Sequence record: PP761450.1
From: Escherichia phage LHE287
Reading direction: 5' to 3' (one strand)
Length of the DNA: 64,000 nucleotides
The notes under the pieces were generated by a model. It did no database searches. It was not told where the DNA came from and worked only from the letters and a program-made list of their open reading frames with translations. This document shows positions 22,171 through 29,086 of this stretch, one piece after another. Position numbers and translations under genes: made by a program. The first letter of the stretch is position 1, and the number at the start of each line of letters is the position of its first letter.

Positions 22171-22177
22171 TATTTAG
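22171..22177 (-). promoter_or_regulatory. late-promoter-like CTAAATA motif
   Basis: Minus strand CTAAATACCCC about 26 nt upstream of helicase start. Confidence 0.4.
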
Positions 22178-22920
22178 TGATCCGGCCAGACTCCGTTTTG
22201 TTCTTTATCCATGCGATGATACAGACGAACACGCTCAAACATCTTTGTCAGAATGTCATCACGGTTGAACTCAATGACGGTTGGTAGAGGGGAAGACTCG
22301 TTGGCAATCACGTTGATGAGGCGGGTGATCTTGACGCCGAACATCTGCTGGAACATGACCGAATATAAGCACAGCTGGATACTGTAATCCTCGATCATGC
22401 CCCGCGTCTTCATGGTGTTCGATGTCTTGAAGTCGATGACAGCAGGTTTACCCTCATAAACCCCGATAAGGTCTACACGGCCTGCAAGACCAAGCACCTC
22501 GCTATATAATGGGATCTCCTGAGCATAGATCTTTGTCATCTTGTTCAGGTAAGGGAACAGCTGCTTGAACATGAACATGTATTCACCAGCCGCTTCCAAC
22601 ACTTCTTTCATTGGGCGGTTCTTTAGATACAGTTCACAAGCAAGGTGCAGCTTCTCCCCTCGGTCAGCACAGCGCATGGTCTCAAGATCAGCGGCCTCTG
22701 CGCCCAGCTTCTTCCTCCAAGACTCAAGCCATTCATGATCTCCAGTGCGTCCCAGCATAGTCGTGACGGATGTCAGTTTAACACCAGACGGTGAAACGTA
22801 ATGACGACCATTCTCCGTCGTAACACACTCCAGTTCCTTATGAGGAAGTTCGTATTGCTGGAATGTGTAATGACGGTTTTCGAAGTCATTCAGCTTGCGT
22901 AGATCCTGGAGAGATGCCAT
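22174..22920 (-). CDS. hypothetical protein, possible PD-(D/E)xK nuclease
   Basis: GRVDLIGVY...VIDFKT...QLCLYS pattern resembles RecB-family nuclease motifs. Confidence 0.4.
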   Translation of the reverse strand: MASLQDLRKLNDFENRHYTFQQYELPHKELECVTTENGRHYVSPSGVKLTSVTTMLGRTGDHEWLESWRKKLGAEAADLETMRCADRGEKLHLACELYLKNRPMKEVLEAAGEYMFMFKQLFPYLNKMTKIYAQEIPLYSEVLGLAGRVDLIGVYEGKPAVIDFKTSNTMKTRGMIEDYSIQLCLYSVMFQQMFGVKITRLINVIANESSPLPTVIEFNRDDILTKMFERVRLYHRMDKEQNGVWPDH

Positions 22921-22935
22921 TATGTGTGATCCTCG

Positions 22936-23388
22936 TTATACACCATCAATATATTTTCTCCACTCAATAGCATTTTTCACTTCGTATCCCAGTTTGTTCA
23001 GGCGATCCAAACAAGTCTCTATGAACTTGACTTTTGCTTTTTGTTCTTGTAACAGAACAGACAACTCCACATAGTCATCGTCTGCTTTGACCCATGTATC
23101 TAGGTCAGACTTCAGGGGGCGAACCTTCAGGGGGCGATCTGCGTAGATGTTAGGGGGTAACTCCCCTGCATAGTAGCGGCGCAGATAGAGATCGATTTGG
23201 CGGAAGCGCCCGTTGAGAAATTCAAGATAACGTCCCTCGCGCAGATAATGCCGCTGTACAGCCATCCAAGAGCGCCCGATTTTCAGTGAGATCTGGTCAA
23301 GGTTCATGTCTTCTGGGTCCACTGTGATCAGCGGCTCCAGTTCGTTCATGATGTCCTCGGTAGCCATTGTCTGTAGTTGTTCTTTCAT
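22936..23388 (-). CDS. hypothetical protein (possible UvsY-like recombination mediator)
   Basis: 150 aa; weak LYLRRYYAG resemblance to UvsY and position next to the UvsW-like gene. Confidence 0.3.
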   Translation of the reverse strand: MKEQLQTMATEDIMNELEPLITVDPEDMNLDQISLKIGRSWMAVQRHYLREGRYLEFLNGRFRQIDLYLRRYYAGELPPNIYADRPLKVRPLKSDLDTWVKADDDYVELSVLLQEQKAKVKFIETCLDRLNKLGYEVKNAIEWRKYIDGV

Positions 23389-23430
23389 AAAATATCCCAG
23401 CTTGTCAATGTCATAGAATTATACCGCATT

Positions 23431-23931
23431 TCATGGATTAGAATCAATCGCCTTCCCACCAGATAGTGGAACCAGCTGTTGGAACTTGAAGGTCACTGTT
23501 GTCACCAGCTGAGGTACAGCCGCGTCTACGTCCACCAGTACGTTGTCCAAAGCAGTCGGGCGGGCTTCCTCCAGCACGAGAGTGAGGCCAATCGGTCGGT
23601 TGAGGTTATCCAGCAATTCAATGGTAATGTCCTTGCTGACAGGCAAATCCTTGCCGACGTTGCTGGTAATCCATTGGTGGATCTGTAACCATGATTTCCA
23701 GTCCTCGTCTATAACGAAAGTAAATACGACGGGATCATAGGTTAAACGCTCTGAAGGTATAGAAACCAACACGTCACCAGGAGACGGACCATCGATGCCT
23801 TCGGAGTACACCCCTGGTATACTGAAGTCGTGGATGTTACGGGTTAGGAGTACAAGGTCTCCGATAGTCAGACGCCACTTATCGGACGCCGCGAAATTAG
23901 GGTTTTCGTTCTTGAATTGTACGTTGGACAT
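23431..23931 (-). CDS. hypothetical protein
   Basis: ORF trimmed to MSNVQFK start at 23931. Confidence 0.45.
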   Translation of the reverse strand: MSNVQFKNENPNFAASDKWRLTIGDLVLLTRNIHDFSIPGVYSEGIDGPSPGDVLVSIPSERLTYDPVVFTFVIDEDWKSWLQIHQWITSNVGKDLPVSKDITIELLDNLNRPIGLTLVLEEARPTALDNVLVDVDAAVPQLVTTVTFKFQQLVPLSGGKAIDSNP

Positions 23932-24202
23932 AATAGCACCTTTGCTGTGGAGATATTTTGTGACCCTGATGCGCGGGATCAGTAGATTGTTGTTGGCATG
24001 CTCGATGCTCTTGTTTACGAGCTGTCGCATCTTTGTCACGCCAATAATTTCTGTTTCCGAACTCTGGAACCCAGAAGTGCGCACTGTACCTGTGACGTTG
24101 TCGGCCAGCGTTCCCACTTGTAACAAGGGTATGCTGGACATCATCGTGCAAGAGTTCCAGCCCTTCCAGAAGCTCGTACCTTTAGGTTGCTTTGATGAGA
24201 AC

Positions 24203-24610
24203 ATGAGCACCCTCAAGCCATACTGGAAGACCACAATTCCTCTCCTGCGGCATGGCGATGAAGGGAAGATTCCATACCTATCAGCAAGTATTTATTACTC
24301 TCAGAACAACAGCATCATTATCACCTTTAATCCATCATTCTACGCCAAGCTGAAGCAACAAATGGTTGGACGACTGGGTACAACATCAGATATAATCGTG
24401 ACGTTCAAGATCATGAATGACTCAGATAAACCAGTACGAATCGCAACTCAGGGTGTGTTCGTTAACAACGAAGCGGTTGGAAATGGGATGAGTATCTTTG
24501 AAGTTAACCCAGGGGGAACGATCTTGATCAGACTGAGTAATGTGGGTGTGAACTCCCTGCTGTTGGATGGCATCGAACCAGTGGGAGTTCTTCCGGCGCG
24601 GGAGCACTGA
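24203..24610 (+). CDS. hypothetical protein (plus strand)
   Basis: Plausible start MSTLKPYW within ORF 23795..24610; converges tail-to-tail with 24611..25339. Confidence 0.35.
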   Translation: MSTLKPYWKTTIPLLRHGDEGKIPYLSASIYYSQNNSIIITFNPSFYAKLKQQMVGRLGTTSDIIVTFKIMNDSDKPVRIATQGVFVNNEAVGNGMSIFEVNPGGTILIRLSNVGVNSLLLDGIEPVGVLPAREH

Positions 24611-25339
24611 TTACTTCAGCGCGTTCTTCAGATTATCGGAACCGATGCTGTTGATGACACCTCCGGCGCAGATATCTTTCGCCCACTCTGATATCACGTT
24701 GGCAAAAGAGAAGTTAAGACACTTACCAACCATGTCTTGGATATGGGCTAACTCTGCTGCAATACCGTTCGTGATGTCTTGAGCAATAGAGGCTACTGAT
24801 GCGACAGCAGTGTCGATGGCTTGAGTAACTTCAGCAGCCAGTGCCCGAATAGCATCAAGACCAGCACTGACACCCTGAGCTACCAACTCAGCCAGCTCAT
24901 TCATCTTGTTTGTGATAGTTGTGAGAACACTTTGCATGGTGTTGATCCACTGTTTGCCGAGGTTCTGAATAACCCCAAATGCATTATTGATCAGATCACA
25001 GTTGTTCGGTTCTCGACCTATAGACTTCAGGGCGGACTTATACGACACAGATGTACCGATGCGGGAATATGCCTCGTTCACTGACTGGTCGCCATAGTTG
25101 TTCAAAGTAGTGATGCTGTTGTTGGCTGAGTTGAACATTGCTGTAGATTCGTTGAGTTTGGCTGTAGTCAACCCACCTGCCGTCAGCGCTTCCTGAATCT
25201 GCGCATTTCCGGTGTTAGCCAGTGACGCTGCAGTCGCCTTACCACTGGTGATTAACCCCTGTGAGGCGCTGCTGAGGGACGGGAGAGGATTGGTAAAGGC
25301 GTTGCCCTGTGATAGGGCGTCATAGATCTGTGCGTTCAT
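24611..25339 (-). CDS. hypothetical Ala/Ser-rich protein, possibly virion-associated
   Basis: Start MNAQIYD (25339); CTAAATACCCCC late-type motif upstream. Confidence 0.5.
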   Translation of the reverse strand: MNAQIYDALSQGNAFTNPLPSLSSASQGLITSGKATAASLANTGNAQIQEALTAGGLTTAKLNESTAMFNSANNSITTLNNYGDQSVNEAYSRIGTSVSYKSALKSIGREPNNCDLINNAFGVIQNLGKQWINTMQSVLTTITNKMNELAELVAQGVSAGLDAIRALAAEVTQAIDTAVASVASIAQDITNGIAAELAHIQDMVGKCLNFSFANVISEWAKDICAGGVINSIGSDNLKNALK

Positions 25340-25367
25340 AAGAAAATACCCCCATGGATGATGGGGG

Positions 25368-25374
25368 TATTTAG
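25368..25374 (-). promoter_or_regulatory. late-promoter-like CTAAATA motif
   Basis: CTAAATACCCCC with inverted copy GGGGGTATTT before the ATG at 25339. Confidence 0.45.
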
Positions 25375-25377
25375 GGA

Positions 25378-25548
25378 TCATGGTAGTTTGTAAACGAAGT
25401 TGGACCAGAACTTACGAACAAACTTCTTGACATAAACCATTCGGTTGGCGTATTCCCCATCCTTCAGGTCATTGTAGGTCTCGATCCCTACCGCGCCCAA
25501 GAAGTACGCCGTGAAGATATAGCAGAACAGATTGATGACGACAAACAT
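25378..25548 (-). CDS. small membrane protein
   Basis: MFVVINLFCYIFTAYFLGAVGI transmembrane helix; GGAGAT RBS. Confidence 0.35.
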   Translation of the reverse strand: MFVVINLFCYIFTAYFLGAVGIETYNDLKDGEYANRMVYVKKFVRKFWSNFVYKLP

Positions 25549-25587
25549 GATGTATCTCCGCTGTGTGCTCAAATTATTTATGATATG

Positions 25588-26010
25588 TTACAAAAGGCGC
25601 TTGGTCTTCGGCTTACCCATTAGAGTGATATCCACAGGGAGGCCAGCTTTCTTGCAACGGTTGATCATGTCCAGGGTGCCAGTGGACGAACCATCCCACA
25701 TCGCAATCGGATACACTTCCAGCTTGGTCTGTCTGACGAGATCCAATGCCTTGTCTAACATGTCCTGATTGCGTTTGTTGCCCATCCCTTTCCCATACTT
25801 TTCATAATAGCTCGGAGGTATTGGCATAGGAGTGATATGAACATAATTGATTTCAGCCCAATCACGGCAAATCTTGTCCACACCAGAGGCTTCACCCTCA
25901 ATCAGTGTATAGACCTCACGAGGATCCAAGAGTTCGTCCAGCTTGGCGAATACCTTATCCCGCTCGGTGATTGAGCGGGAACCCGTAATGAGAACGATAT
26001 ACTTCTTCAT
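25588..26010 (-). CDS. SLOG/DprA-LOG-like nucleotide-binding fold protein (tentative)
   Basis: KYIVLITGSRSI...GEASGVDKI...WDGSSTGT pattern. Confidence 0.4.
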   Translation of the reverse strand: MKKYIVLITGSRSITERDKVFAKLDELLDPREVYTLIEGEASGVDKICRDWAEINYVHITPMPIPPSYYEKYGKGMGNKRNQDMLDKALDLVRQTKLEVYPIAMWDGSSTGTLDMINRCKKAGLPVDITLMGKPKTKRLL

Positions 26011-26015
26011 AGAAC

Positions 26016-26336
26016 TCACAGCGCCCCAAGATTGCCGATTACGTACAGGGAGCACAGAGGAGTGCCTGACGAACGCGGTTCGATCGTCATCCCGCTCAGG
26101 CGGATCAGTTCCAGTAAGCCGTCAGTGGTCTGATACGCGCGTGTCGAACCGTTCGGTCGATATAGCTCCAGCTCAGTTCGCCCTTCCTTTATTGCATTTC
26201 GAATGCGAGTGAACACGCTGTGGTCGCCGAACTTCTGTTTCAGAAGATCCAGCTTGGTGGTCAGGCGGCGACGTGGTTTGCGCGCACGAGGGTTCTCTTT
26301 TACGACCGCTTCTAAAATCGGGATGCTGTTAGCCAT
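26016..26336 (-). CDS. hypothetical protein
   Basis: 106-aa ORF. Confidence 0.45.
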   Translation of the reverse strand: MANSIPILEAVVKENPRARKPRRRLTTKLDLLKQKFGDHSVFTRIRNAIKEGRTELELYRPNGSTRAYQTTDGLLELIRLSGMTIEPRSSGTPLCSLYVIGNLGAL

Positions 26337-26491
26337 GATAAAGTCCTCTATTTGTAGGGGATAGGGTATGCGGTTAACATACCCTGTTCAAAGGTTTAGA
26401 ACAAATTGCTGCAATGTTACTTTGTAACGAGAGTGGTGATAGTTCCTTCATTTCAGAGTCAGTGTTGTGCTGCTTATGGAATGAAGTATAC

Positions 26492-26530
26492 GGGGTTTAT
26501 TGAAGAATTAAACCCCGTATATTGAATAAA
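26492..26530. other. 13-bp perfect-stem hairpin in intergenic region
   Basis: TATACGGGGTTTA-ttgaagaat-TAAACCCCGTATA. Confidence 0.5.
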
Positions 26531-26538
26531 TTTAAAAT

Positions 26539-26775
26539 TTATTTGAAGCGATCAGGAAGGGTGTCGTGAACCTCGGCGCTCAGCACCAGAAACTTACCAT
26601 CCGTCGTTGGGAAGCAATAGTCTTTCTTGATGTGACGCAAGTGTTCAGCTACAGCTGCTACGCAGTCATCTGTCACGTCGGTCTTCTCACCAACCCACAT
26701 GCTGGTTTTGGTGTTCAACCTGCCCTGGAATATAGTACCAGTGAGAGGACTTGCGCCGATCTTTTTGATAATCAT
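26539..26775 (-). CDS. hypothetical protein
   Basis: 78-aa ORF. Confidence 0.45.
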   Translation of the reverse strand: MIIKKIGASPLTGTIFQGRLNTKTSMWVGEKTDVTDDCVAAVAEHLRHIKKDYCFPTTDGKFLVLSAEVHDTLPDRFK

Positions 26776-26783
26776 GTTTAACC

Positions 26784-27227
26784 TCAGTTGTTAACGCGGA
26801 ATGCCGCCGGATACCCACCTGGATGCCCTTCTCCGGTCACGAAGACCTCGTACCGGGCACCTTTAACCAAACCAGGCAAATTGCCTGAGTCAAGCAGATA
26901 GCGGATTTTATCCATAGTCTCCATCCAGGACTTAGCAGGTTCGGCCTCGGCCTCCCCACGGTTGATTTTGATCACACCCTCTGAATAATACTTCCCATTG
27001 TCCTTCATGTAGTACAGCTTGACATCGATAAACTGTGGGGATGGAACTTCTGTCCAACCCTCATCGTTCAAATCCTGGCGATCATTGTCGAAACTCTGAA
27101 AATCAACATCACCGCATGCCAGGCGATAATCTTTGAATTTACGGAAACCTTCCACCTTGTCCCCAACGGAGCTACGGAAGAACTGTTTCTTGGCGGGACT
27201 AATGAAAATGAAATTCTTGTTACACAT
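26784..27227 (-). CDS. hypothetical protein
   Basis: Start MCNKNF (27227) with AAGGAAGG RBS and CTATATC spacer. Confidence 0.5.
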   Translation of the reverse strand: MCNKNFIFISPAKKQFFRSSVGDKVEGFRKFKDYRLACGDVDFQSFDNDRQDLNDEGWTEVPSPQFIDVKLYYMKDNGKYYSEGVIKINRGEAEAEPAKSWMETMDKIRYLLDSGNLPGLVKGARYEVFVTGEGHPGGYPAAFRVNN

Positions 27228-27534
27228 GATATAGATCCTTCCTTTCAAAGAATGTTGTGTTCGTCGATATCGGACTGCGTTGCAATCTCCCAGCGGACGA
27301 TGTTCTCGGTTGTGACGAAATCACGGTTCAGGTGAGAGGCTGGCACATACACCATCGTGTCTCGACCATGAAGTAACACTGCTCATTGTTACAAGAATCA
27401 ACGTAAACCTCGATGAGGCACACCTCGGCAACACCGGCTTTCGGCTTCTTCACAGTCTTTTTCAAGTACATGGTACAACCCTCGGATAGTAGACGGGGCA
27501 ATAATACCTCTCACCCCGTTATTGAAATGTTCTT

Positions 27535-29007
27535 TTAGTTCAAGACATATTTGATCAGTCCACAATTCCAAATCCTGACCAGCCCGGCTTCGGTTGCTAA
27601 CTGGCTTTCTGTTTTGCCTTCTACGTCATACCCCATGCGAGCAAATGAACCTTTTCTGAAACCGAATTTGTGCTCACGCATAAATGTGCCAGGCTTGTGG
27701 TATTTGTAGTCTGGCTTCTGTACTTCCTCTTCTACGAATCCGTGGGATAGGTAAATGTTGGACAACCTGCTTACAACACACCTATCCCCAAAGGAATAGA
27801 TTTTGGTGTCGGTAAATTTTCTTCTGAAGTGTGAAAGAAGTTTACTGAATGCCCCGTGGCAATCATTAGAGGCAAATCTGACTAATTCCAGGCCATCTTT
27901 CCTTTTAGTGAATAGCATCACGGCTTGTATGACCCCACTCTTGTCAATTAACGACAAATGGTGGGTGGAAGAAACGGAACCTTGTATGTGGTGGTTGTCT
28001 AAAAACTCCCTCAAGCCGCTTATATTCCCCCAAACGACTTTGTGTTGGCGAGCATATGACGCGGGTGTTTTAATGCCAAGTTTAGCTTTCAGAAGAGATT
28101 TGACCACTTCCTGTTTCTCAACCCATTCATCTTCCCAGATGTGGATCAACTGGATACCCTGAGTTTCACATATTTCAGTCTTTTCCAGGTGATAATGTTT
28201 CTCTTTAAAAACTTCTGAATGCCAGTACAGGCCATTAAATTCGATCGCCAATTTGTGTTCAGGGCAATAGATATCCAGTTGTTTACCGGATAATATACTG
28301 TAATCAGAAACAGTGTTTACAACTCCCATTGAGGTGAGAAACTCGGATATTTCCTTTTCATAAGAAGATTTCTTGTTCCTGATAGAACCATTGCTGAACA
28401 ACGCACGTTTTAGTATGTTCGAGTTTTTCATAGGGTTGTCAACACCATAACGTTCTTGTAACGTTGCCAACGCCTTCTCCCTCACACCAGGTAATTGTAG
28501 TGTGGAGCAGCTTCCGTATTTGGATATATTCGAATTCTCTATGGCTTTCCGACCAATCCCACCTTTACACATAGAAACCTGATAACATTCTTCAGAACAA
28601 TATGTTCTGTAATCTTTATTATTGATATAAAAGTTGGTTTCCTTGGAACACACCGGGCATATTTTCACGGTTCTATTGTACAGCCAAGCTGTGACTTTAC
28701 AAGCCAAATCTTGTAGGGTGTTGTGGGTATTGGCGAACACTAAAAGGTCTACATTGATGTGCTTCATAAGCAGTTCAGATTTGCATTTTTGGATATCCAA
28801 TTTGTTGTTCTTGGTAAACATATATTTGTAGAAAAATTGGCGATATGATTCCTCGTCAGACAATTCATTCACTGCTTCAAGGAAACCTTCCGGGAGGTTC
28901 TTTAGGGTGTTCGATGCGAAGGTCTTGCAAGCATCTGAACAAAATTTCTTATCTTTCCTGGATGCTTTGAACTGTTCATGGCAGACACTACAGATTACCT
29001 GATACAT
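27535..29007 (-). CDS. free-standing nuclease: zinc-finger N-terminus plus Vsr-like (PD-(D/E)xK) domain; putative homing endonuclease
   Basis: PEHKLAIEFNGLYWHSE and GIQLIHIWEDEW parallel E. coli Vsr PKHRLAIFVDGCFWHGH and GWRVLIVWECAL; two CxxC...C clusters; GGAGGAG RBS at start 29007. Confidence 0.6.
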   Translation of the reverse strand: MYQVICSVCHEQFKASRKDKKFCSDACKTFASNTLKNLPEGFLEAVNELSDEESYRQFFYKYMFTKNNKLDIQKCKSELLMKHINVDLLVFANTHNTLQDLACKVTAWLYNRTVKICPVCSKETNFYINNKDYRTYCSEECYQVSMCKGGIGRKAIENSNISKYGSCSTLQLPGVREKALATLQERYGVDNPMKNSNILKRALFSNGSIRNKKSSYEKEISEFLTSMGVVNTVSDYSILSGKQLDIYCPEHKLAIEFNGLYWHSEVFKEKHYHLEKTEICETQGIQLIHIWEDEWVEKQEVVKSLLKAKLGIKTPASYARQHKVVWGNISGLREFLDNHHIQGSVSSTHHLSLIDKSGVIQAVMLFTKRKDGLELVRFASNDCHGAFSKLLSHFRRKFTDTKIYSFGDRCVVSRLSNIYLSHGFVEEEVQKPDYKYHKPGTFMREHKFGFRKGSFARMGYDVEGKTESQLATEAGLVRIWNCGLIKYVLN

Positions 29008-29064: not shown

Positions 29065-29086
29065 AAACCCCGCCGAAGCGGGGTTT
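29065..29086 (-). terminator. UUCG-loop terminator after major capsid gene
   Basis: aaaccccgcc-gaag-gcggggttt; minus strand shows cUUCGg loop followed by TTTTAT. Confidence 0.6.

What the first reader, a model, noticed from the sequence alone, without database searches (positions are those of the whole stretch)
25588..26010. SLOG-like small protein within a block of uncharacterised genes (22174-27250)
The KYIVLITGSRSI...GEASGVD...WDGSSTGT pattern resembles SLOG/DprA/LOG nucleotide-binding folds, which are linked to nucleotide-signalling conflict systems. It sits among seven small unassigned ORFs including a membrane peptide, which is the kind of neighbourhood where anti-defence genes cluster. 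The fold assignment is tentative.
Basis: inference. Interest (0 to 1): 0.4.

Follow-up and report, generated by a model that had tools for sequence, protein, structure and literature searches.

The report
Small DprA-like SLOG protein in phage
The gene is real and does encode a small SLOG-fold protein (Pfam YAcAr/DUF2493), but it belongs to a very large, already catalogued phage family. It is conserved in about 270 related phage genomes, its function has never been tested, and nothing here shows an anti-defence role.

Summary

**Setting.** The window is an Agtrevirus-like Ackermannviridae phage, 99.2% identical to Escherichia phage vB_EcoM-RPN242. An identical protein is already deposited.

**Interpretation: partly supported.**
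- The fold call is right.
- The "block of seven unassigned ORFs" is not accurate. It includes a PD-(D/E)XK exonuclease, UvsY and a gp3-like tail completion protein.
- The block sits between the major capsid gene and gp3 in about 270 enterobacterial Ackermannviridae genomes, under purifying selection (dN/dS 0.065).
- It has no meaningful PADLOC defence-system match.

**Family relations.** By sequence the closest characterised family is DprA: 65 of 137 relatives also hit PF02481, and the ssDNA-binding G-S-R and R-N residues are invariant. Relatives elsewhere lie beside or are fused to helicases and polymerases. Some are linked to NADAR, Nudix or NAMPT genes.

**Best guess (about 40%).** A DprA-type pocket that binds ssDNA or a nucleotide and assists phage replication or recombination. 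Its invariant basic C-terminal tail may be a partner or nucleic-acid handle. The published, untested ADP-ribose counter-defence idea stays open (about 25%).

**Verdict.** Ordinary; low to moderate interest.

The parts
25588..26010 (-). SLOG (YAcAr/DUF2493, PF10686) gene, 140 aa including the C-terminal tail; stop at 25588-25590
25975..25983 (-). Codons for G10-S11-R12, the loop after strand 1. This equals the DprA ssDNA-binding motif 1, 'G-S/T/A-R'.
   Evidence: G10 is invariant and R12 >=90% conserved in 137 family representatives. The family profile aligns this loop to HpDprA G50-T51-R52 and to E. coli Smf VGSR. Motif defined in PMC3950713.
25876..25896 (-). Codons for G39-E-A-S-G-V-D45, the Gly-rich loop after strand 2
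   Evidence: G39, G43 and D45 are invariant family-wide. The loop aligns to DprA GGALGVD and Smf GLARGID.
25768..25782 (-). Codons for G77-N-K-R80-N81, in the helix after strand 3. The invariant R-N dyad resembles the 'R-N' of DprA motif 2.
   Evidence: R80 and N81 are invariant in 137 representatives. The equivalence to HpDprA R143/N144 is inferred from motif order and secondary structure only. No residue-level alignment was obtained.
25675..25698 (-). Codons for W105-D-G-S-S-T-G-T112, the loop after strand 4 (S-x-G-T)
   Evidence: G111 and T112 are >=90% conserved, and FWDGxSxGT is the family signature used. The position that holds the catalytic Glu in LOG's PGGxGTxxE motif is Met115 here (direct reading).
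25591..25620 (-). Codons for the C-terminal tail M131-GKPKTKRLL140, specific to the Ackermannviridae clade
   Evidence: MG[KT]PK[TS]KRL[LI] is kept in all 23 clade members, down to 44% overall identity. The tail carries +3.5 of the protein's net charge, while the core has pI 6.6. It is low-confidence or disordered in the model.
26016..26336 (-). Upstream gene (phrog_4663, 106 aa). Its stop lies 5 nt before the SLOG ATG, so the two are probably translationally coupled. Function unknown.
25378..25548 (-). 56-aa peptide with one N-terminal hydrophobic segment (FVVINLFCYIFTAYFLGAVGI), phrog_4845
   Evidence: The transmembrane character comes from direct reading of the sequence.
24611..25339 (-). 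DUF7217 gene (PF23854, 242 aa), the last gene of the four-gene run
26539..26775 (-). DUF7446 gene (PF24233, 78 aa)
26784..27227 (-). phrog_4181 gene (147 aa), unknown function
23431..23931 (-). gp3-like tail completion / sheath stabiliser gene; marks the downstream edge of the block
22936..23388 (-). UvsY recombination mediator gene
22174..22920 (-). PD-(D/E)XK exonuclease gene

Best explanation
The gene encodes a stand-alone, minimal SLOG-fold protein of the YAcAr/DUF2493 family. Its nearest characterised relative by sequence is the Rossmann-like core of DprA, the bacterial ssDNA-binding RecA loader.

Most likely mode of action: the pocket formed by four loops holds a nucleobase or nucleotide, most plausibly one base of single-stranded DNA as in DprA. 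The loops are G10-S11-R12 (after strand 1), G39-x-A-x-G-x-D45, R80-N81 (helix after strand 3) and S-x-G111-T112. The protein would then act as a non-structural accessory of phage DNA replication or recombination, alongside UvsY, UvsW and the exonuclease encoded just downstream. The invariant basic C-terminal tail (GKPKTKRLL) would be a second nucleic-acid contact or a docking peptide for a partner.

Shown here: the fold, family membership, the conserved residues, purifying selection, conservation across the lineage, and the contexts of relatives. Inferred only: ssDNA as the ligand, a role in replication or recombination, and the function of the tail.
For: **Fold and family**
- PF10686 hit above threshold.
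- AF2 pLDDT 93.6, with a five-stranded alpha/beta core.

**Closest to DprA by sequence**
- All 137 family representatives hit PF10686. Of these, 65 also hit PF02481 (DprA; best E 5e-7). Only 4-5 hit YpsA or cpYpsA, and 2 hit LOG.
- The best PDB sequence hits of the family profile are H. pylori and S. pneumoniae DprA (E 0.004-0.005). They align G-S-R to HpDprA G50-T51-R52 and GEASGVD to GGALGVD. hhalign against E. coli Smf gives the same alignment.
- In HpDprA, R52, R143, N144 and G164 hold a thymine of ssDNA. R52E and R143E cut affinity 315-fold and 173-fold (PMC3950713).
- The family-wide invariants are exactly G10, G39, G43, D45, R80 and N81, with R12, G111 and T112 at >=90%.

**Contexts in unrelated phages**
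- Directly upstream of a Dda helicase (VH7D).
- Overlapping or adjacent to DNA polymerase (KpV52, AL-2).
- Between a RuvC-like resolvase and a helicase, next to Pol I (Gordonia Sixama).
- In the helicase / primase / EndoVII arm of D29.
- Near DnaC, near primase / methyltransferase / ParB, and downstream of an ERF annealing protein.
- Fused to the SF1B helicase HelB of ICP1 (bioRxiv 10.1101/671271).
- Among 196 neighbours in 51 non-redundant IMG/VR loci, about 29 are replication, recombination or nucleotide-metabolism proteins.

**In this lineage**
- The gene lies about 2.2 kb upstream, on the same strand, of UvsY-exonuclease-UvsW.
- It was not listed among proteins found by mass spectrometry of CsCl-purified Kuttervirus Sajous1 virions (PMC10892097), which is consistent with a non-structural role.
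- dN/dS is 0.065.
Against: - No binding or activity has ever been measured for any YAcAr protein.
- The window protein itself does not hit PF02481.
- Its core is about 130 aa against about 205 aa for a DprA domain. It lacks the extra strands and the dimer/RecA-binding surface of DprA.
- The aromatic residue of DprA motif 2 (F/L/Y-x-x-R-N) is a Gly here.
- The R80-N81 to R143-N144 equivalence rests on motif order, not on a residue-level alignment (one search found none).
- The core is not basic (pI 6.6).
- In this phage the immediate neighbours are not DNA-metabolism genes: phrog_4663, a membrane peptide and DUF7217.
- DNA-metabolism genes are common in phage early regions, so the neighbour counts have no proper background control.
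- Some relatives are instead coupled to NADAR, Nudix or NAMPT.
Confidence: 0.4

Rival explanations
1. Counter-defence against nucleotide or ADP-ribose signalling. The SLOG pocket would bind (sponge) or cleave an NAD+-derived immune signal such as a cADPR isomer or another ADPr derivative. This would blunt Thoeris-like or related host systems. It is essentially the first reader's idea and the published prediction for viral YpsA-like SLOG domains.
For: - Published predictions: PMC9503650 section 3.4.4 and PMC7824862.
- Relatives are linked to ADPr/NAD genes. P0092 is NADAR-DarT1 + 3x YAcAr + DUF4326 in one 1099-aa protein beside a lytic transglycosylase.
- P0044 overlaps an upstream NADAR gene by 4 nt.
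- P0091 lies just downstream of a Mu-type portal gene; I read this as a possible MuF-like polyvalent-protein position, but its N-terminal region was not identified.
- Nudix x2, NAMPT, NADAR and cREC x2 occur among 196 neighbours.
- The block occupies a site that is empty in a Vibrio Ackermannviridae genome.
Against: - No experiment supports it for any YAcAr protein. Literature searches found no phage SLOG among characterised anti-defence proteins.
- No NADAR was detectable in the 64-kb window, and no Macro, Nudix or NADAR domain lies in the block.
- The gene is fixed in about 270 genomes at core-gene-like conservation, not patchy as most anti-defence genes are.
- By sequence the family is much closer to DprA than to YpsA or LOG.
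- The LOG catalytic Glu position holds Met115.
Confidence: 0.25
2. A LOG-like N-glycosidase or other nucleotide-metabolising enzyme. It would remodel the dNMP pool, for example in connection with the modified thymidine of Ackermannviridae DNA.
For: - Thymidylate synthase, ThyX, dNMP kinase, RNR and dGTP diphosphohydrolase occur among neighbours of relatives.
- A MazG-like pyrophosphatase is encoded in the same genome region.
Against: - No PF03641 hit for this protein, and only 2 of 137 relatives hit it.
- The PGGxGTxxE catalytic Glu aligns to the conserved Met115 (direct reading; the LOG motif is recalled from the literature).
- The family is abundant in phages with ordinary DNA, such as L5/D29-type mycobacteriophages (289 Mycobacterium phage records). 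A role tied to hypermodified bases is therefore unlikely.
Confidence: 0.1
3. A GTP-binding protein, as many GenBank and PHROG annotations state ('GTP-binding domain').
For: The label attaches to phrog_289 and to many deposited records.
Against: - The sequence has no Walker A motif (GxxxxGK[ST]) and no NKxD motif (direct reading).
- No GTPase family appears in the Pfam or NCBIfam results.
- GTPases appear only at the bottom of the Foldseek list (SRP54 and Ffh/FtsY, probability about 0.3, TM about 0.28), and none score as a credible match.
- In one record (VH7D) the label accompanies a note of similarity to mycobacteriophage L5 gene 61. Whether that is the origin of the label was not traced.
- The phrog_289 profile is chimeric and puts the same label on the unrelated DUF7217 protein.
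Confidence: 0.03

Closest known systems
YAcAr / DUF2493 (Pfam PF10686, 'YspA, cpYpsA-related SLOG family'), SLOG superfamily
   Same: Hit above the curated threshold. All family invariants are present: G10, R12, G39, A41, G43, D45, G77, R80, N81, G111, T112. It has the same about 125-aa stand-alone architecture as most of the 26,111 cluster representatives.
   Different: It carries a clade-specific, invariant basic C-terminal tail (MGKPKTKRLL) that the wider family lacks. It also sits in a conserved position between the capsid gene and gp3, rather than in a replication module.
DprA/Smf (PF02481), the ssDNA-binding RecA loader; also the DprA-like antitoxin ShosA
   Different: - About 130 aa against about 205 aa; it lacks the DprA insertion between strand 3 and the R-N helix.
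- No SAM or C-terminal winged-helix domains.
- The aromatic residue of motif 2 is replaced by Gly.
- The window protein does not reach any PF02481 score.
- Dimerisation and RecA/UvsX binding are unknown.
YpsA (PF06908; B. subtilis cell-division modulator) and ThsA SLOG domain (Thoeris 3'cADPR sensor)
   Different: No sequence-level hit for this protein, and only 4-5 of 137 relatives hit YpsA or cpYpsA. There is no fused effector domain (Sir2 or TM). The ligand is unknown.
LOG cytokinin riboside 5'-monophosphate phosphoribohydrolases (PF03641)
   Same: Same superfamily fold, with a G-T-containing loop after strand 4.
   Different: The catalytic Glu of PGGxGTxxE corresponds to Met115. There is no PF03641 hit.

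Membership tests
YAcAr/DUF2493 (PF10686) | Score above Pfam's gathering threshold for PF10686 | tested here: met
   41 bits against a 28.2-bit cut-off, E 1.7e-10, residues 5-58. All close homologues carry a precomputed PF10686 assignment.
SLOG superfamily | Three-layer alpha/beta Rossmannoid fold with a five-stranded sheet. [quoted passage not shown] | tested here: met
DprA/Smf (PF02481) | Motif 1 'G-S/T/A-R' in the loop after the first Rossmann strand (PMC3950713) | tested here: met
   G10-S11-R12 aligns to HpDprA G50-T51-R52 and to Smf VGSR.
DprA/Smf (PF02481) | Motif 2 'F/L/Y-x-x-R-N/D' (or A-M-x-R-N/D) | tested here: inconclusive
   The sequence is G77-N-K-R80-N81. The R-N dyad is invariant but the aromatic/Ala-Met position is Gly. 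Equivalence rests on motif order only, because no residue-level alignment of this half was obtained.
DprA/Smf (PF02481) | Pfam PF02481 hit and an about 205-residue DprA domain | tested here: not met
   No PF02481 hit at E <= 0.1 for the window protein, and the core is about 130 aa. Weak sub-threshold PF02481 hits occur in 65 of 137 relatives.
DprA/Smf (PF02481) | ssDNA binding, dimerisation and recombinase (RecA) loading | not testable with these tools
   Needs biochemistry.
LOG (PF03641) | PGGxGTxxE motif with its catalytic Glu; PF03641 hit | tested here: not met
   The segment D106-G-S-S-T-G-T-L-D-M115 places Met at the Glu position (direct reading; the motif is recalled from the literature). 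No PF03641 hit.
Thoeris ThsA-type SLOG sensor | SLOG domain fused to an effector (Sir2 or TM) that binds 3'cADPR or gcADPR | tested here: not met
   The protein is stand-alone at 140 aa with no effector domain, and there is no PADLOC Thoeris hit. Ligand binding cannot be tested here.
Known defence systems (PADLOC-DB) | Significant hit to a defence-system protein model | tested here: not met
   The best hit is DruM at E 0.047, 11 bits, which is not significant.
Known phage anti-defence proteins (Tad1/2, Acb1/2, Apyc1 and others) | Homology to a characterised anti-defence protein | not tested
   No anti-defence profile library was available. A literature search found no phage YAcAr among characterised anti-defence proteins.
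P-loop / TRAFAC GTPases (the 'GTP-binding domain' label) | Walker A GxxxxGK[ST] and NKxD motifs | tested here: not met
   Both motifs are absent from the sequence (direct reading). No GTPase family appears in Pfam or NCBIfam.

The most novel reading that the evidence does not exclude
YAcAr proteins, including this one, could be ssDNA-directed readers or erasers of ADP-ribose. The DprA-type pocket would grip a base of single-stranded phage DNA at the fork or on entry. The protein would then recognise or remove DarT-type ADP-ribosyl adducts, either alone or with a partner such as NADAR, or it would capture ADPr-derived signals there.

This would reconcile the two recurrent contexts of the family: helicase/polymerase/SSAP neighbours and fusions on one side, and NADAR/DUF4326/Nudix/NAMPT links on the other. 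It would also define a new class of phage counter-defence acting on modified DNA.

A related possibility is that the four-gene run (phrog_4663, SLOG, membrane peptide, DUF7217) forms one recombination or anti-nuclease module. The Felix O1 homologue of DUF7217 is annotated as complementing lambda red mutants.
Probability: 0.1. Interest if true: 0.7.

Novelty: already known. Interest (0 to 1): 0.25.

Why it matters
As it stands, this is one more copy of a catalogued family in a well-sampled phage group, so the finding itself adds little.

The family is nevertheless large and completely uncharacterised:
- 26,111 clusters at 50% identity.
- Homologues in 923 of 50,697 phage records.
- Published surveys report SLOG domains in about 19% of medium-sized and 31% of jumbo phages.

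Settling whether it binds ssDNA like DprA or processes ADP-ribose derivatives would annotate thousands of phage genes. It would also test a long-standing computational prediction about viral SLOG domains.

This orthologue is a convenient entry point. It comes from an E. coli phage, has a confident model, well-defined pocket residues to mutate, and an invariant tail that suggests a specific partner.

Tried and rejected
- **Defence and naming libraries.** PADLOC and NCBIfam scans of six block proteins gave nothing significant.
- **PDB by sequence.** Searches with the single protein and with the narrow clade profile found only chance hits. Only the broad 137-sequence profile reached DprA.
- **Second half against DprA.** hhalign against E. 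coli Smf and BLASTP of the C-terminal halves aligned only the first half or nothing. The R-N equivalence therefore stays unproven.
- **Apparent SLOG-DUF7217 fusion.** The 500-column phrog_289 profile suggested one, but none of 31 DUF7217 relatives carries PF10686. In Felixounavirus the DUF7217 gene has no SLOG neighbour. I rejected this as evidence of a functional link and treat the profile as chimeric.
- **Late promoters.** The T4 late-promoter motif TATAAATA occurs once in the window, as expected by chance. The sigma-70 scan was at background. Expression timing was not determined.
- **Virion proteomics.** In the Kuttervirus Sajous1 study, neither the main-text protein tables nor the supplementary files list a 'GTP-binding' or DUF2493 protein among virion proteins. 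The 'molybdate-binding' gp215 lies in a different gene cluster, judging by gene numbering.
- **Plasmids.** tblastn gave only 6 distant hits and was not informative.
- **Locus retrieval.** It was rerun with a 39-sequence subset.
- **NADAR in the window.** phmmer found none.
- **Felix O1 'red' experiment.** The source could not be found in the paper library.

Full report
**1. What is there**

The minus strand of window 25588-26010 carries an ORF of 140 codons (ATG at 26008-26010, TAA at 25588-25590).

The ORF listing also offers an upstream GTG that would give 155 aa. Orthologues down to 44% identity all begin at the ATG. The upstream gene ends at 26016-26018, 5 nt before it. The ATG start is therefore correct, and the two genes are probably translationally coupled.

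The gene is under strong purifying selection. Against Shigella phage ChubbyThor there are 19 synonymous and 5 non-synonymous differences, giving dN/dS 0.065. The protein is 100% identical to that of Salmonella phage vB_CECAV_050.

**2. Where the window comes from**

The 5.5-kb region around the gene is 99.2% identical to Escherichia phage vB_EcoM-RPN242. It is 97-98% identical to other Agtrevirus-like Ackermannviridae, and 272 phage records match it.

All genes but one in this region run on the minus strand (the exception is the phrog_3832 ORF listed below). In transcription order they are:
- neck, terminase, sheath, tube, portal, prohead protease/scaffold and major capsid genes;
- a strong terminator (29065-29086);
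- a homing endonuclease (27535-29007);
- small genes: phrog_4181 (26784-27227) and DUF7446 (26539-26775);
- phrog_4663 (26016-26336);
- the SLOG gene (25588-26010);
- a 56-aa membrane peptide (25378-25548);
- DUF7217 (24611-25339);
- one opposite-strand ORF (24203-24610, phrog_3832);
- gp3-like tail completion (23431-23931);
- UvsY (22936-23388);
- PD-(D/E)XK exonuclease (22174-22920);
- UvsW helicase, then clamp and clamp loader.

**3. Fold and family**

- Pfam gives PF10686 (YAcAr, "YspA, cpYpsA-related SLOG family", formerly DUF2493) at 41 bits, against a 28.2-bit cut-off.
- PHROGs gives phrog_289 (E 2.5e-39).
- An AlphaFold2 model built on 24 orthologues has mean pLDDT 93.6. It shows a five-stranded alpha/beta core, and only the last ten residues are low-confidence.
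- Foldseek ranks DprA first.

**4. How big and how well known the family is**

A profile search of 1.84 billion cluster representatives finds 26,111 with E <= 1e-3 and 7,483 with E <= 1e-10. Most are stand-alone proteins of about 120-140 aa. tblastn finds a homologue in 923 of 50,697 phage records, including 289 mycobacteriophages, where it is routinely annotated "DprA-like DNA processing chain A".

The family has been discussed in comparative-genomics papers. These predict that viral YpsA-like SLOG domains use or process NAD+/ADP-ribose derivatives (PMC7824862, PMC9503650). I found no experimental characterisation of any member.

The common database label "GTP-binding domain" has no support:
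- There is no P-loop or NKxD motif.
- No GTPase family is hit.
- The phrog_289 profile is chimeric. The SLOG protein matches columns 20-146 and the unrelated DUF7217 protein matches columns 250-500, so both receive the label.
- No natural fusion was found among 31 DUF7217 relatives.

**5. Which characterised family is closest**

- All 137 diverse family representatives hit PF10686. Of these, 65 also hit PF02481 (DprA; best E 5e-7). Only 4-5 hit YpsA or cpYpsA, 3 hit LDcluster4 and 2 hit LOG.
- The family profile's only significant PDB sequence hits are H. pylori and S. pneumoniae DprA (E 0.004-0.005). They align G10-S11-R12 with HpDprA G50-T51-R52 and GEASGVD with GGALGVD. hhalign against E. 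coli Smf agrees.
- The HpDprA-ssDNA paper defines two motifs that bind ssDNA, G-S/T/A-R and F/L/Y-x-x-R-N/D. R52, R143, N144 and G164 hold one thymine in a pocket (PMC3950713).
- The residues invariant across the 137 representatives are G10, G39, G43, D45, R80 and N81. R12, A41, G77, G111 and T112 are at >=90%.
- Reading E. coli Smf next to the phage protein, the four elements occur in the same order: VGSR/TGSR, GLARGID/GEASGVD, FPRRNRII/GNKRNQDM and RSGSLVT/SSTGTLD.

Caveats:
- The second half could not be aligned statistically.
- The motif-2 aromatic residue is Gly here.
- The core is about 130 aa rather than about 205 aa.
- The window protein itself has no PF02481 hit.

It is therefore a sister of DprA within the SLOG clan, not a DprA. 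It is not a LOG either: the position of LOG's catalytic Glu (PGGxGTxxE) holds the conserved Met115.

**6. Context evidence**

*Within Ackermannviridae.* The gene holds the same position in Agtrevirus, Limestonevirus, Kuttervirus and Taipeivirus. About 262 records have it at >=60% identity. About 270 have UvsY and about 266 have DUF7217 at >=60%. It is effectively core in the enterobacterial lineage. A Vibrio Ackermannviridae genome goes straight from the capsid gene and a homing endonuclease to gp3-UvsY without the block. The site is therefore plastic on a deeper time-scale. Small genes also come and go within it: the window and RPN242 lack a 93-aa gene that CECAV_050 and ChubbyThor have at 26337-26538.

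*Outside the family.* Annotated examples place the gene as follows:
- next to a Dda helicase (VH7D);
- overlapping or adjacent to DNA polymerase (KpV52; AL-2, between clamp and polymerase);
- between a RuvC-like resolvase and a helicase (Gordonia Sixama);
- in the helicase/primase/EndoVII arm of D29;
- near DnaC, or near primase/methyltransferase/ParB;
- fused to the SF1B helicase HelB of ICP1.

Four further cases were uninformative. In a fifth, KP1-1, the gene follows a gene annotated as N4-like RNA polymerase.

*Metagenomic look-ups.* These added an ERF annealing protein upstream. They also added a NADAR gene overlapping by 4 nt, a 1099-aa NADAR-DarT1 + 3x YAcAr + DUF4326 protein beside a lytic transglycosylase, and a 552-aa protein just downstream of a Mu-type portal gene with YAcAr at its C-terminus.

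*Neighbour census.* I surveyed 196 first and second neighbours in 51 non-redundant IMG/VR loci.
- About 29 were replication, recombination or nucleotide-metabolism proteins: DnaB, Pol A, Pol III alpha, topoisomerase/gyrase, ligase, UvsY, AAA_24, PD-(D/E)XK, methylases, ParB, TS/ThyX, RNR and dNMP kinase.
- About 9 were NAD/ADPr/RNA-repair proteins: Nudix x2, NAMPT, NADAR, cREC x2, RNA ligase x2 and Thg1.
- No single partner dominates, and I had no background control.

Both themes are real, and neither is decisive.

**7. Clade-specific feature**

All 23 Ackermann-clade orthologues end in MG[KT]PK[TS]KRL[LI]. This holds down to 44% overall identity, which makes it the most conserved stretch of the protein. 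It is predicted disordered and supplies +3.5 of the net charge, whereas the core has pI 6.6. The wider family lacks it. I read it as a partner-docking or nucleic-acid-contact peptide, which is inference only. From memory, it resembles basic-then-hydrophobic C-terminal recognition tags such as that of MuA for ClpX; I did not test this.

**8. Other evidence on the role in this phage**

**9. Verdict**

- **Observation:** confirmed.
- **Interpretation:** partly supported. The fold call is right; the "anti-defence neighbourhood" claim is not shown.
- **Best explanation (0.40):** a DprA-type pocket that binds ssDNA or a nucleotide and serves phage replication or recombination.
- **Main rival (0.25):** binding or cleavage of an ADP-ribose-derived signal as counter-defence.
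- **Minor rivals:** a LOG-like nucleotide enzyme (0.10); a GTP-binding protein (0.03).
- **Remainder:** something not considered here.
- **Most novel reading not excluded (about 0.1):** a reader or eraser of ADP-ribosylated ssDNA, which would unite the two context themes.

The protein and its family are already in the databases, so novelty is "already known" and interest is low to moderate (0.25).

Noticed in passing
window 24611-25339 (-); L017 171-623; L018 3947-4708: The DUF7217 protein downstream of the SLOG gene has about 27%-identical homologues in Felixounavirus phages. The old Felix O1 GenBank record AF071201 annotates its homologue as 'red: complements red mutants of bacteriophage Lambda'. 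This could point to a recombination or anti-RecBCD role for DUF7217. The underlying experiment could not be found.
   Followed up: partly
window 25588-26010 and 24611-25381; phrog_289: The phrog_289 profile (500 columns, 'GTP-binding domain') is chimeric. The SLOG protein matches columns 20-146 and the unrelated DUF7217 protein matches columns 250-500. Pharokka-style annotations therefore call both 'GTP-binding domain-containing protein'. No natural fusion was found.
   Followed up: yes
window 25591-25620 (-): The C-terminal tail MG[KT]PK[TS]KRL[LI] is invariant across all Ackermannviridae-clade orthologues down to 44% identity and is absent from the wider family. It is the best-conserved part of the protein, and its partner is unknown.
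   Followed up: partly
window 26337-26538: This 200-nt gap has no minus-strand ORF. CECAV_050 and ChubbyThor carry a 93-aa hypothetical gene at this spot, whereas the window and RPN242 lack it. Small genes therefore turn over inside the otherwise conserved block.
   Followed up: partly
L019 (Vibrio phage 1.255.O) 3574-7426: A Vibrio Ackermannviridae genome goes from major capsid to NUMOD3 endonuclease to gp3-like to UvsY, with none of the six block genes. The block was gained or lost at this junction.
   Followed up: partly
window 27535-29007 (-) and 29065-29086 (-): A 490-aa homing endonuclease (phrog_3339/phrog_559) sits just downstream of a strong intrinsic terminator (9-bp GC-rich stem plus T-run) that follows the major capsid gene. 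RPN242 has an extra 200-bp gene here that the window lacks.
   Followed up: partly
window 24203-24610 (+): This is the only opposite-strand gene in the long minus-strand cluster (phrog_3832, unknown function). It is wedged between DUF7217 and gp3. Its annotated length varies from 135 to 222 aa among relatives.
   Followed up: no
window 26016-26336 (-): The phrog_4663 protein has a variable basic N-terminus (PRARKPRRR) and a C-terminal 75 aa that is almost invariant across genera, more conserved than the SLOG protein. The AF2 model is alpha/beta (pLDDT 75) with no confident structural match.
   Followed up: partly
L023 997-4296; L025 3579-4393; L024 3449-5107: Some YAcAr relatives occur in polyvalent-type proteins (NADAR-DarT1 + 3x YAcAr + DUF4326 beside a lytic transglycosylase). 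One has an overlapping NADAR gene upstream. A 552-aa protein just downstream of a Mu-type portal gene carries YAcAr at its C-terminus.
   Followed up: partly
window 27245-27469 (-): RPN242 annotates a 74-aa gene here. In the window the longest ORF in that frame is only 44 aa (27245-27379), which suggests a point difference that truncates or re-starts the gene.
   Followed up: no
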